A stretch of DNA of 15,170 nt from Octopus sinensis (lineage: Eukaryota): contig NW_021825555.1 of the NCBI RefSeq assembly GCF_006345805.1, positions 1 to 15,170 on the forward strand, written 5' to 3'. The position numbers and the translations under genes are program-made. Shown piece by piece: positions 4,411 through 15,005 of this stretch (its first letter is position 1; every line of letters starts with the position of its first letter). The notes below the pieces were generated by a model, which was not told the origin of the DNA, made no database searches, and saw nothing but the letters and a program-made list of their open reading frames with translations.

Positions 4411-4411
<1 letters not shown>

Positions 4412-4592
4412 TTTATTTTAAGCAGCAGAAAATTCAACAACATCTGTTACTCTGAGTTTCTCGTTGCCGAGAAACTCAGAGTAACAGATTTTGTTGAATT
4501 TTCTGCTGCTTAAAATAAAGCATATTACTCTACCACTGGTATTTGAGTACTCTTTTTTCCACCTTGTTTCACATTTATGTGTTTACTCCGGT
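4411..4592. repeat. Foldback (53-bp arms) of a probable Penelope-like terminal repeat, flanked by (TA)n
   Basis: 4411-4463 and 4468-4520 are inverted repeats, 52/53 identical, with loop TTGC. Each arm carries GAAACTCAGAGT, also present in the hammerhead at 8827-8889. Confidence 0.8.
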
Positions 4593-4977
4593 ATATATAT
4601 ATATATATATATATATATACCACACAACACACGAGTGTTCATGGGTTTGTCTTTCTCAATAGGACTGTATAGTCTGTGCCATTCTCTATAGATATATATC
4701 TCATCTACTTCTCGTCAATGCTATCCTCTCTCTCTCTCTCTCCCCCCACCCGACTTCTCATGTTTAATATACATACACACGTATGCAGATGCATAGTCAT
4801 ACGGCTGGCCGCTAGCGTACAAGTCTGTCCATCACTTGCTTCTGCGTCTAGCATATCTATCAATTTATCTCGTCGTTTGTGTCTCTCAACCTACTTAGAA
4901 TTATCACGAGATTATCACGAACTTTAATGATACAGGACTATTTTCACAATGCTGAACACAGGAAGTAGCATGCCGTT

Positions 4978-6328: not shown

Positions 6329-6375
6329 TCTCTGATGAAGGGATATATAAAATTATCACGGAAACAGCTGTAAGA
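6329..6375 (+). ncRNA. Minimal type I hammerhead ribozyme (stem II degenerate)
   Basis: TCT-CTGATGA-[AGGGATA..TATCACG]-GAAA-CAGCTG-TA-AGA. Canonical core, palindromic stem III, GUA cleavage triplet and 3-bp stem I. Lies about 200 bp upstream of a Penelope-like RT on the same strand. Confidence 0.7.
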
Positions 6376-6579: not shown

Positions 6580-7210
6580 TTCGAAAACATAAGCGGTAAG
6601 AATAATAATACCTCGTTTATTCAGTTTGACATAGAGAATTATCACACGTTTAACTTATCCATATTGTTCAATAGGGCAATTAGTATAGCAAGAAAGGTTT
6701 CGGATATAACAGAGGATATAATAAACACCATACTGTTAGCTTAGAAGAAACAAATTTCTTTCCAGAAGGGATTATTTTTATAGACAGTCCAGGGCTGATG
6801 AGTTCAATGTTACTCAAAAAAATTCCGAACATAGTAAGCGGAATCTATAGAGATGACGGTCTCTTAACAATTTCAGGATTTCCCCAATCCGATCTGGGGA
6901 AACTTAGAAAACATCTCTACGCTTTATTCGAGAACTCCAATCTCTATATCTTTCTAAGAAGTGCAGCAAAAGGATGTAACATTAGATATCGACTCAGGAC
7001 TATATTATTCATTCAATAAATCCAACGAAATATTACATTACATTCACAGACAGTCATGCCATCCCAGGTATGTTATTGACTTAATTAGGAATATTTGGAT
7101 TAGGGTTTTCAACCTCTCCGTTAATGAACGAATTTTCTACAATAAGTCGGAATGCTATAATGAAACTCGTAAGAGAGCGGGTTACACTGATAGAATTAAG
7201 TTCACACTAA
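6580..7210 (+). pseudogene. Penelope-like element (Neptune-type) reverse transcriptase fragment
   Basis: FIQFDIEN (6616-6639), GIYRDDGL (YRDD at 6846-6857) and DVTLDIDSGLY..YIHRQSCHP..IRVFNLSVNERIF..Y...KRAGY, all characteristic of PLE RT/thumb. Stops, frameshifts and an internal deletion. Confidence 0.85.
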
Positions 7211-7565
7211 GTTTAAACTGGCCCTGAAGGGTTGCGGAGCTACGGAAAACAATACGGGTGCATGTAGCAGAAGTTCACGTAGCGCCTGCTTATCCAGCCT
7301 GGTCAACCCTGGGACCTTTGACTGACCCCAACGAATCATGCAGGGCACGAACTCATTCCAGCAGTAACTCGTCTCCTACAGGAAATGCGTTTAACCCGGA
7401 CAAGAGGATATTGAGAGAACTGGGTGGCCTGGTCACAAATCTACGACCATAGAAAGGTGGAGTGTAGAATATACTACTGAGACCTAACTTTAGTTATTTG
7501 TCGCATTTTCCAGCACGCGCACGTGCGTGTGTGTGTGTGTTTAAGTACGTGTGAGTGTAGTAACA

Positions 7566-8189: not shown

Positions 8190-8727
8190 TACCGAACACA
8201 AAAGCAAAAAAACGAACGTATAAAAGGTTAAAAAAATAGAAGGAAAAAAATACACGAAGAAAAATTTCGTCTGCCTACTGGGAGTGAACCGGGACTGATG
8301 CCCTTCCAAAAATAAGCAAAACAGCACTTCCGTGGCCCCAGTTGCCCACGCCCCTTTATAACGAAAACCCTTTACGATCAAATTGATAAGAAAGTTTTTA
8401 TGATTTTGTAGCGTTTAATATAAGTAACGCAATGTAAACCGGCGTGTCCTCTTGCCAAAGTTTCATCTCTCTTTCACACGTGTGTGTGTGTAGGAGTGTA
8501 TATATATGTACGTACGCATATGTATATAAAGCATATATCTCTTGTAGTATATATCTTGAATCTCTTTAATAATCTCATAATAATGACTTTTATTCCTACC
8601 TCAGTTCATCTAATTGTATATATCTGTCGTTACCTTTCATAAAAAACCTTTACTTTTTTTTTATTTACAATGTGCATTTTCGTTGATTTTTCTTACTTTT
8701 TCCCATATATATATATATATATATATA

Positions 8728-9700
8728 TTGATAAAACGGTAAGATAACAAAAGAAAGAAAGAGACCTCAATATTATGTAAATAGAGGAAATTTATCTATA
8801 CAATATGTTACATTACTCGGTAGTCAAGATAAAACTCTGAGTTTCAGATGCCGAAGTGGAAATCCACAACACCATCTCTTCGGTTATCTGGCTATTTGAA
8901 AACGTTATGAAAAAATACCGTTAAAAATGAAGGGAAATTACTCTGTTATAACTCTGCTTTGCCTGCGTACTTATACATCGCTCGCATTTTTCGTCATAAA
9001 AATTATATAAAAATACATAAAAATATAAAAATATATAAAATCTTCTTGGGACATAACACAGAAAGCATGTTCTATCCGTTTTCTTTAGGGGACCAAAAAC
9101 GTAACAGAATTTAGTCACATGTGGGCATGATCCGAAACTCTGTCCTTGTATTTAGACATGTGGTAGGGTCTAAGCTGCTTTTCCAGATAAGCCATCTCTC
9201 CATGTCGCATAAACCGCACCTTCCGCTGCCGTTAGTATAGGGCTTACATCTGGCCAAAATCTTCCATTGTATGTTATAATCGACACCTTTATCTCTTAAA
9301 GACCAAATATGATTGGATAATTGTGTCGCTTTTCTTTTGTTCCAGTGCCTAAAGCTCAAAGTGTGGTTATTGAACCTGGCCTTGAAATTACCCTCTGTCA
9401 GGCCCACGTATTTCTTCGTCGAAACGGTGTCTTTAGTGTTATATATTTGTTTTTACGGTAGCTTCATATATGATGGTCTTGGACATGCAAGCTCCATTTA
9501 GCGGGCACAATTCTTTATTCCTGCATGAACAGCTGTTTTCTTTCTTGTGTTTTTTGTATGTTATGATTGATTATGTTTTTAAAATTGGTAGTTGAACTAA
9601 AACTAATTTTTAAATTGTGTCTATTGAAGAGTTTCCTATAAGCATGGTTAACTGGAAAATGTCTATCTATCAGTGCTAGGAAATAACCAATTGTTAGACG
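8728..9700 (-). mobile_element. Penelope-like element (Neptune-type) 3' part: linker, Cys-rich motif, GIY-YIG endonuclease (9111-9700) and 3' terminal region with hammerhead
   Basis: [101 protein letters not shown]. Frameshifted. The downstream non-coding part ends at (TA)n 8706-8727. Confidence 0.88.
8827..8889 (-). ncRNA. Type I hammerhead-like fold with variant core
   Basis: Reverse complement AGATAA-CCGAAGA-GATG..CATC-T-GAAA-CTCAGAG-TT-TTATCT. Perfect 6-bp stem I, stem II and short stem III. Deviations: U4C, an extra U before GAAA, and a GUU triplet. Lies in the 3' region of the PLE. Confidence 0.6.
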
Positions 9701-9756
9701 GTGGTAATTGCTCTGTACAATGCAATAACGTGCGTATATATATACACGTATATATG

Positions 9757-9788
<32 letters not shown>

Positions 9789-10049
9789 GTGTGTGTGTGC
9801 GAGCGTGTGTGTGTGTGCAATTTGAGAACTTTCAGAACGAGTGGCCAGGAAACTATGTTGGTCCCAGGGAGAACGTTTATCTTCAGCAGTGAGACCATTG
9901 CTCTCAGCTACGGCCGCTCAGCGGAACTCTAAGCAAACGATACTACATCAAAAAGTTTACTTCGAAAGAGGCGGTTGAGCAACCGGGAGGGCTTCAAAGG
10001 ATTACGACTTTATTTCCTGGGGTGAAGACGGGAAAGATAGGCAGTGACA

Positions 10050-10395
10050 CGTATAGAAAGGTTCCGAAGGGGCCGGTACCAAACTTTTGGCATCGAAAAT
10101 TATACAAACCCCTACACAGGACCCTACTTCACATTTCCAAAGGTCAGTTGCTGCAATAAACTGTGTTTCAAAGGTTTCTGGGCTATTTAATATCTGGCTG
10201 GAAAAACCTAGGGATCTACATTGAGTGGGGTTAGATGTTTTCAAGAAGAATCTTGACCTTCTGCTGTCCGTGATCGCAGATAAGCCTATATCAGGGCAAG
10301 ATATTCGAATGAGGGCAACAATACTAAAATCTCTCGTACATCAAAAGGCAAACACATGAGAACTGGCGTGGAAAATGGCGGTGCCCCAACATAGT
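10050..10395 (+). pseudogene. CR1-type LINE ORF2 C-terminus and 3' end (may extend upstream to about 9820)
   Basis: KVPKGPVPNF/GIENYTNP..CNKLCFKG..LFNI..RDLH*VGLDVFKKNLDLLLSVIADKP..RMRA..SLVHQ, stop at 10357-10359. Resembles the FK..LD..L..(I/V)PD.P end of CR1 ORF2. Confidence 0.65.
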
Positions 10396-10476
10396 CGCAT
10401 ACATTCATACACACACGCACGCATGCACATACACACACACACACACATACACATACACATACACACACACATATAT

Positions 10477-10686
10477 AAACGTTAGCACGCCGGGCGAAAT
10501 GCGTAGCCGTATTTCGTCTGTCGTTACGTTCCGGGTTCAAATTCCGTCGAGGTCGACTTTGCCTTTCATCCTTTCGGGGTCGATAAATTAAGTACCAGTT
10601 ACGCACTGGGGTCGATGTAATCGACTTAATCCCTTTGTTTGTCCTTGTCTGTCCCCTCTGTGTTTAGCCCCTTGTGGGTAGTAAAG

Positions 10687-10691
<5 letters not shown>
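10477..10691 (+). mobile_element. SINE family A, slightly 5'-truncated, between microsatellites
   Basis: High identity to 305-532 and 14050-14274. Confidence 0.88.
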
Positions 10692-10720
<29 letters not shown>

Positions 10721-10726
<6 letters not shown>

Positions 10727-10830
10727 ATCGACCAGACTATCAGATGTTGCTACACATCGCTGGTCACAGTGCGCTTCGCATTGTTTTAGCCTTCAAATGA
10801 CGCCACCCCGCTGGCTAAGCGAGCAGGCCA
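10721..10830. repeat. Probable interspersed-repeat fragment embedded in (TA)n
   Basis: A 110-bp GC-richer island with sharp (TA)n borders on both sides. It resembles an octopus repeat I recall, but there is no second copy in the window. Confidence 0.35.
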
Positions 10831-10914
10831 CTATATATATATATATATATATATATAAATACTGTATTATATGTGTGCGTATGTCTAAACGCACACATGA
10901 CACAGTCAGAGATG

Positions 10915-10950
<36 letters not shown>

Positions 10951-11623
10951 CGGGGGGGAGGATAAAAAGGGAAGAGGATCAGGGGGGAGCTCAATTGATT
11001 ACATCCTGAGTTTAATCATCTTTTATATGGCAAAAAAAGCAATATATAACACACACACACACACGGTTTAGAGAGGGAAAGAATAAAGGCAGTAAGAGAG
11101 GCACGAGGAAAACGGGGGAGCATAGAAGGAGGAGAGGGCGGAGGAGGAGCAAGAGAGAGGAAGGAAACAGTAATTTCTCAGAGCGTGGAAAACAGAAACG
11201 TTTGGTGACGGCCGTCATTACTGTTGCTAATTCTTCACCTTTTTTTCCTCGTTTGCATCGCCAACGACGACGCCATTATAGAATTTACTTGTTGCTCTTC
11301 TTGATTTTTTAGTTACTTCTCTTCTCTTCTATAGTCATCGTCGTTGTCGTCGACAACACAGGCGTTTACGTTTACGGGTGAATGCAGCTTAGATACGCTC
11401 AGGGTACGTGGATGCGCGCGCGAGAGAGAGAGGACAAGCAAGGGAGAGAGAGAGTGTGGGGGGGAGACAGACAGATAGAGAGGGAGAGAGTGATGGATAC
11501 ATGCACCCGTTTTTGTTAACTTTTGAGTACAAAATGCCATAATGCTACGCCCGACAGATTCTAGAGTGCATTCGCTGGTACTGGTGAATATATGTATATA
11601 TAGCGTATATATATATAGCGTGT

Positions 11624-11674
<51 letters not shown>

Positions 11675-11678
<4 letters not shown>

Positions 11679-11841
11679 AAGTTAATCCAAACAAGAAAAC
11701 ACAGAAATAAACAGCAACGCGAGGACGTGGAACAATTAAAGTATTATTTGACGCTCAGGAAAGAAGGGAAGGAGGGTTTAACGTTTCGAGCGGAGCTCTT
11801 CGTCGGAACCAAGGAGAGGAAAGATCCCAAGAAGGGAAGAC
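11675..11841 (-). mobile_element. About 165-bp hammerhead-bearing mini-element embedded in (TA)n (PLE terminal repeat or retrozyme-like monomer)
   Basis: Complex sequence bounded by (TA)n on both sides and containing the hammerhead fold at 11775-11810. Confidence 0.55.
11775..11810 (-). ncRNA. Minimal type I hammerhead-like fold with variant core
   Basis: Reverse complement GGTT-CCGACGA-A-GAGC-TCC-GCTC-GAAA-CGT-TA-AACC. 4-bp stem I, 4-bp stem II, palindromic AACGTT at stem III. U4C variant plus a one-base insertion after A9. Confidence 0.65.
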
Positions 11842-11874
<33 letters not shown>

Positions 11875-14049: not shown

Positions 14050-15005
14050 GGCGGCGAGCTGGCAGAAACGTTAGCACGCCGGGCGAAATGCGTAGCCGTA
14101 TTTCGTCTACCGTTACGTTCTGAGTTCAAATTCCGCCGAGGTCGATTTTTACCTTTCATCCTTTCGGGGGTCGATAAATTAAGTACCAGTTACGCACTGA
14201 GGTCGATGTAATCGACTTAATCCCTTTGTCCTTGTTTGTCCCCTCTGTGTTTACTAGTGGGTAGTAAAGAAATAGGTATTTCGTCTACCTTTACGTTCTG
14301 AGTTCAAATTTCCGCCGAGGTCGACTTTGGCTTTCAATCCTTTCGGGGTCGATATTAAGTACGAGTTACGCACTGAGGTCGATGTAATCGACTTACTCCC
14401 TTTGTCTGTCCTTGTTTGTCCCCTCTGTGTTTTTAGCCCCTAGCGGGTAGTAAGAAATAGGTATTTCGTCTACCTTTACGTTCTGAGTTCAAATTCCGCC
14501 GAGGTCGACTTTGCCTTTCATCCTTTCGGGGTCGATAAATTAAGTACGAGTTACGCACTGAGGTCGATGTAATCGACTTAATCCCTTTGTCCTTGTTTGT
14601 CCCCTCTGTGTTTTAGCCTCTAGTGGTTAGTAAGAAATAGGTATTTCGTCTACCTTTACGTTCTGAGTTCAAATTCCGCCGAGGTCGACTTTGCTTTCAT
14701 CCTTTCGGGGGTCGATAAATGGAGTACCAGTTACGGCACTGAGGTCGATGTAATCGACTTAATCCTTTGTCTGTCCTTGTTTGTCCTCTCTGTGTTTAGC
14801 CCTTGTGGGTAGTAAAGAAACTGGTATTTCGTCTGCCGCTACGTTCTGAGTTCAAATTCCGCCGAGGTCGACTTTGCCTTTCATCCTTTCGGGGGTCGAT
14901 AAATTAAGTACCAGTTACGCCTGGGGTCGATGTAATTGACTTAATCCGTTTGTCTGTCTTGTTTTTCCCCTCTATATTTAGCCCCTTTGTGGGCAGTAAA
15001 GAAAT
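14050..15005 (+). mobile_element. SINE family A tandem array: one complete head plus five units of about 180 bp
   Basis: Units start at about 14097, 14275, 14460, 14640 and 14823. Only the first is preceded by the A-box head (14050-14096). Confidence 0.92.

What the first reader, a model, noticed from the sequence alone, without database searches (positions are those of the whole stretch)
8827..11810. Recurrent non-canonical CCGANGA hammerhead core in two unrelated elements
Seen: two folds with entirely different stems (8827-8889 and 11775-11810) both have C in place of the conserved U4 (CCGAAGA, CCGACGA). The change creates a CpG, the opposite of the usual decay direction. Known: the canonical core is CUGANGA. 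Inference: a lineage-specific class of variant hammerheads that standard motif searches would miss. I cannot confirm whether it has been described.
Basis: partly seen in the sequence, partly recalled or inferred. Interest (0 to 1): 0.72.

Follow-up and report, generated by a model that had tools for sequence, protein, structure and literature searches.

The report
C4 hammerheads fixed in Penelope retroelements
Two unrelated jumping-gene families in this animal genome carry, as their majority form in thousands of copies, a hammerhead-shaped RNA motif with a C where the self-cutting core normally has a U, a change that likely weakens cutting without stopping the elements from spreading, although cutting itself is untested.

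Summary
Both motifs are real, lie on the minus strand and exceed chance. They are the 3' pseudo-LTR hammerheads of two Penelope-like retroelement (PLE) families: a Hydra-clade copy (8705-9685) and a 160-nt Neptune-type 3' stub (11680-11842). C4 is the family state, not decay: 2,489 of 4,634 and 84 of the first 100 of 5,023 genomic matches. It sits in intact 708-aa elements. Older relatives have U4, so C4 arose separately in each. A third, retrozyme-like repeat also has C4 (97 of 100). The rest of the motif stays conserved after the change. Against a new class: it is one substitution with no compensating change; U4C is a known natural viroid variant with low in vitro activity; a CYGANGA descriptor is in print; U4 is still the commoner core here; and insertions show no excess of ends at the cut site. 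Best reading: a weakened, tolerated ribozyme. I found no paper reporting C4 as a PLE family state, but could not read the likeliest one (Lunse et al.). The scan noted other core variants in octopus PLEs, and no look-alike of these two sequences.

The parts
8705..8728 (.). (TA)n tract at the 3' end of element 1, the usual Hydra-clade insertion target
   Evidence: Craig et al. section 11
8723..9685 (-). Element 1: 5'-truncated copy of a Hydra-clade Penelope-like element
   Evidence: 97.8-98.2% identical to intact element L321; same span matched by close copies
9111..9452 (-). GIY-YIG endonuclease end of the element 1 ORF, with a frameshifted last stretch in this copy
   Evidence: Pfam PF01541 E=5e-4, 20.7 bits, below the cut-off 22.6; compared with the intact ORF
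8827..8889 (-). Type I hammerhead motif 1: helix I 8889-8884 with 8832-8827; core CCGAAGA 8883-8877 (C4 = 8882); 13-position helix II with three mismatches; unpaired U 8846; GAA 8845-8843; near-palindromic helix III 8842-8834; predicted cut after GUU, between 8833 and 8832
   Evidence: the cut site is predicted from the known motif
11680..11842 (-). Element 2: 5'-truncated 3' stub of a Neptune-type Penelope-like element, between TA tracts
   Evidence: 97.8% identical to L003/L189; fixed 3' end followed by (TA)n in close copies; RT and GIY-YIG coding sequence about 4 kb upstream in 4 of 9 long fetches
11776..11810 (-). Minimal type I hammerhead motif 2: core CCGACGA 11806-11800 (C4 = 11805); extra A 11799; helix II 11798-11795 with 11791-11788; GAA 11787-11785; ACGU palindrome 11784-11781; predicted cut between 11780 and 11779; helix I damaged at 11809 in this copy

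Best explanation
The two motifs are the 3' hammerheads of two unrelated Penelope-like retroelement families in which C4 is the majority core state, and C4 is likely a separately arisen, tolerated change that weakens self-cleavage without stopping retrotransposition. Shown: C4 is inherited from master elements and sits in intact, young copies. Inferred: it arose by an ordinary U-to-C transition in each master. These hammerheads are predicted to cut only as dimers or with protein help. New copies carry the uncut motif because reverse transcription starts downstream of it, so a slow ribozyme costs little and may help keep the template whole. The rest of the fold stays under selection, which points to residual cutting or to a structural role. 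The two window copies are truncated passengers, and copy 2 is predicted to be further crippled by its helix I change.
For: Family state: 2,489 of 4,634 matches in lineage 1; 84 of the first 100 of 5,023 in family 2, with 798 of 5,023 CUGANGA. Intact pLTR-708 aa ORF-pLTR element with C4 at both ends, and C4 in 10 of 10 long copies. C4 copies are younger: mean pairwise difference 6.1% (16 copies) against 17.0% for U4 (10 copies) in lineage 1; divergence 2.9-6.1% against 7.7% in family 2. A sister Hydra family and 34 of 34 rows in Craig File S2 have CUGA. Constraint: across five subfamilies 2 of 35 motif columns vary against 65 of 178 flank columns (p=1e-4; p=0.02 on the 20 columns that the relaxed patterns left free). 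Third C4 family with a canonical-looking fold. Literature: U4C lowers activity in vitro yet allows viroid infectivity (PMC3088659); catalytic hammerhead mutants do not affect PLE insertion in vitro and the ribozyme needs protein (PMC11167929).
Against: No cleavage data exist for these RNAs. Copy 5' ends do not pile up at the cut: 1 of 30 long copies starts within 2 nt of it and 13 of 30 run through an intact upstream hammerhead; about 25 junctions at the cut against about 30 at a control offset (counted by eye). In one C4 branch helix I has an uncompensated mismatch. Deep mutational scanning found low activity for changes in CUGA other than the C3-G8 swap (PMC9901934 text). The family 2 tree does not resolve the root (C4 needs 5-7 changes), so U4-to-C4 polarity there rests on divergence and mixed diagnostic columns. 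The flanks are low-complexity and may mutate faster, which inflates the constraint test. Covariation in lineage 1 is weak (5 pairs against 2.3 shuffled, among related sequences).
Confidence: 0.58

Rival explanations
1. Dead relic: C4 abolishes cutting, the elements do not need it, and C4 spread by hitchhiking with successful masters. The motif is kept for another reason (protein binding, promoter or RNA structure) or has simply had little time to decay.
For: No excess of 5' ends at the cut site. A larger related family has U in place of A6 in 99 of 100 matches (14,792 in all), which suggests loose catalytic demands. Hammerhead mutants do not block PLE insertion in vitro. Naiads spread without canonical hammerheads. 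An uncompensated helix I mismatch occurs in one C4 branch.
Against: The catalytic positions other than 4 and helix II stay fixed while flanks diverge by up to about 26% between subfamilies. The same position changed three times, and to the one base known to keep some activity in nature.
Confidence: 0.25
2. Selected attenuation: C4 was favoured repeatedly because a slower ribozyme preserves more full-length template, so C4 masters outcompeted U4 masters.
For: C4 marks the youngest subfamilies in both lineages and arose in three unrelated repeats. C4-G5 is a CpG whose decay restores U4 in single copies (L093, L069), yet no later U4 master is evident in lineage 1 or the youngest family 2 branches.
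Against: Most other families seen here keep U4 and some are young and intact (L331-L334; 12,940 against 9,372 matches). Subfamily turnover fixes neutral changes readily. U-to-C is the commonest kind of change, so recurrence can reflect tolerance alone.
Confidence: 0.12
3. Compensated, fully active variant class: some shared feature rescues C4 to normal rates.
For: Element 1 has a long helix II and extended helix I that could make tertiary contacts. The third family has a 6-bp helix I with a distal extension and a GUC site. In family 2, C4 removes one pair from a competing rod fold (0.5 kcal/mol).
Against: The three families share no second change. U4 and C4 copies of family 2 are otherwise identical across the motif.
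Confidence: 0.05

Closest known systems
Minimal type I hammerheads (min-HHR) of metazoan Penelope-like elements (Cervera and De la Pena 2014, PMC4209133; read parts 1-2 of 4 of the text, supplement part 2 of 3 and search passages)
   Same: Type I topology in the pLTR, extra base between 9 and 10.1, G10.1-C11.1, palindromic 15.2-16.2, dispersed truncated copies (element 2 fits exactly).
   Different: Their consensus is CUGANGAH; the core variant they report is U3-A8. No C4 core in the alignment rows that I saw.
Hydra-clade PLEs and their hammerheads (Craig et al. 2021, PMC8557442; read passages, section 11, supplement part 2 with File S2)
   Same: RWK, DKT, CxCX5C, CxxC and CxH motifs, short single ORF, (TA)n target, ACUC-N-GAGU helix III.
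   Different: 34 of 34 listed cores are CUGA. Element 1 has C4, a much longer helix II and an unpaired pyrimidine before GAA. Their octopus Hydra-1_oBim motif is a different sequence.
U4C viroid hammerhead (Ambros and Flores 1998; not read, seen only as cited in Perreault et al. 2011, PMC3088659, passages and section 8)
   Same: Same substitution, natural, reported to lower activity in vitro and keep enough in vivo.
   Different: There it is a variant of a viroid RNA; here it is the majority state of multi-thousand-copy DNA families in an animal.
Poseidon PAc hammerhead (PMC11167929; read passages and part 2 of the main text)
   Same: PLE hammerhead, no RNA or insertion ends at the cut site.
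   Different: Its core variants were engineered; it was shown to be protein-assisted. Nothing comparable was tested here.
Non-LTR retrozymes (PMC7229834, passages; bioRxiv 10.64898/2026.07.22.740005, part 1 of 5)
   Same: The third C4 family is non-coding in the stretch seen, has a 363-nt cut-to-cut unit and occurs in tandem.
   Different: Mostly dispersed or inverted copies; circular RNA not shown; C4 core.

Membership tests
Type I hammerhead ribozyme | Three helices in type I order around the core | tested here: met
   Descriptor hits against 1 in 200 shuffles; 87% of cells paired across 24 relatives. Helix I of window copy 2 is damaged.
Type I hammerhead ribozyme | Consensus core CUGANGA, GAAA, UH | tested here: not met
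   U4 is C in both; the other core positions match. U4C is a documented natural exception.
Type I hammerhead ribozyme | Site-specific self-cleavage | not testable with these tools
   Only contigs were available.
Type I hammerhead ribozyme | Rfam hammerhead model match | tested here: inconclusive
   No hammerhead hit for the window, but none for U4 relatives either.
PLE minimal hammerhead | Location in the pLTR of an RT plus GIY-YIG element | tested here: met
   Both pLTRs of L321; RT and endonuclease upstream of family 2 stubs in 4 of 9 long fetches.
PLE minimal hammerhead | Short palindromic helix III (dimer type) | tested here: met
   ACGU in element 2; ACUC-A-GAGU in element 1. Dimer activity itself was not tested.
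Hydra-clade PLE (element 1) | RWK, DKT, CxCX5C linker, CxxC and CxH around the conserved E and N | tested here: met
   RWK 37, DKT 114, CSCRNKELC 557, CGLC 660, CPH 691 in the 708-aa ORF (criteria).
Hydra-clade PLE (element 1) | Placement in an RT phylogeny with named Hydra elements | not tested
   No tree with reference proteins was built.
Neptune or Nematis PLE (element 2) | CX2-5CxxC linker before a C-terminal GIY-YIG domain, and (TA)n target | tested here: met
   CSRSRCNTC precedes the GIY-YIG domain in L189, L190, L191, L194; PF01541 E=0.006, below cut-off.
Neptune or Nematis PLE (element 2) | Which of the two clades (needs an RT phylogeny) | not tested
   'Neptune-type' rests on motifs and recall; no intact ORF was recovered.
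Non-LTR retrozyme (third C4 family) | Short non-coding tandem unit between hammerheads, expressed as circular RNA | tested here: inconclusive
   One 363-nt tandem locus (L375/L376) among 16 fetched stretches; expression not testable.

The most novel reading that the evidence does not exclude
C4 is a convergently selected 'slow' setting of the hammerhead: at least three unrelated mobile elements in one animal genome independently fixed the one core change that keeps weak activity, because too much cutting destroys the template. With the U6 family and other core variants, this genome would be a natural series for reading how retroelements tune ribozyme speed.
Probability: 0.2. Interest if true: 0.68.

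Novelty: new variant of a known kind. Interest (0 to 1): 0.45.

Why it matters
Why PLEs keep hammerheads is open: the ribozymes are weak in vitro and were dispensable in the one in vitro insertion assay that I read. Here matched natural U4 and C4 versions of the same element exist, with intact ORFs for one family, so activity and its effect on transposition can be compared directly. In practice, strict CUGANGA scans undercount hammerheads in this genome: 9,372 C4 against 12,940 U4 matches for one motif layout.

Tried and rejected
Rfam: no hammerhead hit for C4 or U4 copies, so it does not test the C4 question. RNA evidence: no RNA holder listed, contigs only; they show presence in coded runs and cannot show ends. 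Copy-level decay as the source of C4: rejected. A spike of 5' ends at the cut site: not found; this does not show absence of cutting. A conformational switch in element 1 (core CCGAAG is complementary to CUUCGG in helix II): predicted occupancy at most 0.03 in 7 of 8 C4 copies, rejected as a switch; it may point to templated mutation, untested. Trees: included non-homologous flanks or TA tails and disagree (2 against 2-3 changes); one search left the root unresolved. A random 600-kb survey was too sparse (24 hits, many chance). A family first seen with C4 (GGCUG helix II) is U4-dominated. Pfam did not recognise the RT fragments. Lunse et al. (PMC5785218) and Ambros and Flores (PMC147498) are not held; I saw only citations and a review's summary. 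Seven paper searches gave no report of C4 as a PLE family state. Figures and bioRxiv supplements were not visible and may bear on novelty.

Full report
Observation. Both motifs are on the minus strand at the stated coordinates, with cores CCGAAGA (8883-8877) and CCGACGA (11806-11800). A descriptor with position 4 left open found only these two in the window, against 1 hit in 200 shuffles. Rfam lists no hammerhead in the window (150 of 152 matches shown), but it also misses U4 relatives. Folding energies are ordinary. The window lies in G000, a 2.72-Gb genome. Earlier AI notes on this genome call it an octopus, which fits repeats that I recall; I did not test this.

Element 1. Positions 8705-9685 are a 5'-truncated copy of a young repeat; the best 30 copies are about 99% identical over the query. 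Longer copies encode RT and a GIY-YIG endonuclease. L321 is intact: pLTR, 708-aa ORF, pLTR, with C4 in both hammerheads. L322 and L324 also have 708-aa ORFs, and 10 of 10 long copies carry C4. The protein has RWK, DKT, CxCX5C, CxxC and CxH, the Hydra-clade marks of Craig et al.. A pattern with the core left open gave 4,634 matches; 2,489 have CCGANGA, and by eye 53 of the first 100 are C4 and 47 U4. The U4 copies belong mostly to older subfamilies: mean pairwise difference 17.0% (10 copies) against 6.1% for C4 (16 copies; four rows with indels or foreign flanks left out). One tree puts 20 C4 copies and one U4 copy in a clade (100/99); a second, noisier tree needs 2-3 changes. A sister Hydra family, 44% identical in protein, has CUGAUGA, as do in CUGA form all 34 rows of Craig File S2. 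So U4 is ancestral here. The motif also has an unpaired pyrimidine before GAA, shared with U4 relatives.

Element 2. Positions 11680-11842 are a stub with a fixed 3' end and TA flanks. RT and GIY-YIG coding sequence, with a CX4CxxC linker, lies about 4 kb upstream across a CA-rich tract in 4 of 9 long fetches: a Neptune-type PLE by motif. Its RT is 22% identical to that of element 1 over 170 aa. The motif with an open core has 5,023 matches: 84 of the first 100 are C4, 16 U4, 3 have the opposite-strand CpG change A5; 798 are CUGANGA. U4 exceeds what CpG decay would give (16 against 3, p=0.004) and forms its own subfamily. When copies are picked by flanks alone (8,150 matches), 15 of 30 are C4, 14 U4 and 1 A4. 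The U4 subfamily is older (7.7% from its majority, 24 rows) than the four C4 groups (2.9-6.1%, 42 rows), and 7 of 9 outgroup copies are U4 (groups drawn by me from the tree, 66 of 81 ingroup rows). The tree does not fix the root and diagnostic columns are mixed, so U4-to-C4 is likely, not shown. The window copy has a private helix I change that raises the cost of the hammerhead fold from about 3 to 9.6 kcal/mol.

Recurrence. For one layout, the genome has 9,372 C4 and 12,940 U4 matches, with controls of 54 and 53; nearly all of the first 100 C4 matches are family 2. A wider pattern showed a third family (349 matches, control 47): 222 matches, 97 of the first 100 with C4. It has a 6-bp helix I, a GUC site, no PLE ORF within 1.5 kb upstream in 16 stretches and a 363-nt tandem unit in one locus, like a retrozyme. 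A relative of family 2 keeps U4 but has U in place of A6 in 99 of the first 100 of 14,792 matches, with position 7 free. C4 is thus one of several core departures here.

Constraint and activity. Across the five family 2 subfamilies, 2 of 35 motif columns change against 65 of 178 flank columns (p=1e-4, or 0.02 for the 20 columns that the relaxed patterns left free). Ascertainment and low-complexity flanks weaken this, but the flank-anchored list showed no subfamily that had lost the motif. In lineage 1, 87% of cells pair; covariation is weak and several pairs were fixed by the search pattern. No second change is shared by the three C4 families. There is no genomic trace of cutting: 1 of 30 long copies starts within 2 nt of the cut and 13 of 30 read through an intact upstream motif; about 25 of 76 matches are true junctions at the cut against about 30 of 34 at a control offset. 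Public runs were contigs only.

Mechanism. Shown: C4 is inherited from masters, is younger than U4 in lineage 1 and probably in family 2, and occurs in intact elements. From the literature: PLE minimal hammerheads cut weakly and as dimers; one needs protein, and its catalytic mutants still insert in vitro; U4C lowers activity in vitro but sustains a viroid (as cited there); a mutational scan reports low activity for CUGA changes. Inferred: C4 slows cutting, and that is tolerated because copies are made from templates whose 3' motif is uncut.

Novelty. The elements and the hammerhead type are known, U4C is known, and CYGANGA has been used as a descriptor (PMC13481778, passages). Seven searches found no report of C4 as the majority state of PLE families; Lunse et al. 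could not be read. Sequence look-ups in the scan's notes found nothing; word look-ups found other octopus core variants and none for C4. Other papers seen as passages only: PMC6765202, PMC7461866, PMC3907566, PMC4191386, PMC6155905. Verdict: real, recurrent three times, a new variant of a known kind; interest 0.45.

Noticed in passing
G000 genome-wide, e.g. L121, L004; A relative of family 2 has core CUGUNGA (U for the conserved A6) in 99 of the first 100 of 14,792 matches, with position 7 free. It is larger than either C4 family.
   Followed up: partly
L365-L380 (e.g. L375:1486-1550); Third C4 family (CCGAUGA, 222 matches), canonical-looking type I fold with a GUC site, 363-nt cut-to-cut unit, retrozyme-like. 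Several copies lie beside another repeat with a weak zinc-knuckle match.
   Followed up: partly
window 6332-6375 (+): A third hammerhead-like motif with canonical CUGAUGA, an ACAGCUGU palindrome and a decayed helix II (seen by eye).
   Followed up: no
window 4411-4619: The long perfect hairpin is a pair of inverted ends of another Hydra family, 98-99% identical to L331, truncated inside its hammerhead. L331-L334 have intact 705-712-aa ORFs and a U4 hammerhead with a very short helix II.
   Followed up: partly
window 6684-7224 (+): Decayed RT-like frames (YRDD motif) of a probable further PLE; no Pfam match.
   Followed up: no
window 8851-8883 (-): In the youngest subfamily the core CCGAAG became perfectly complementary to CUUCGG in helix II through successive changes; possibly templated mutation. 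Predicted pairing is rare.
   Followed up: partly
L189, L190, L191, L194: Family 2 carries about 4 kb of CA-rich repeats between its ORF and its 3' hammerhead.
   Followed up: no
L187: Three tandem copies of the element 1 pLTR, about 519 nt apart, ahead of the ORF: a natural setting for dimer formation.
   Followed up: no
window 14098-15005, 10474-10660, 352-492: A SINE-like repeat, with five tandem 180-bp units at the window's end.
   Followed up: no
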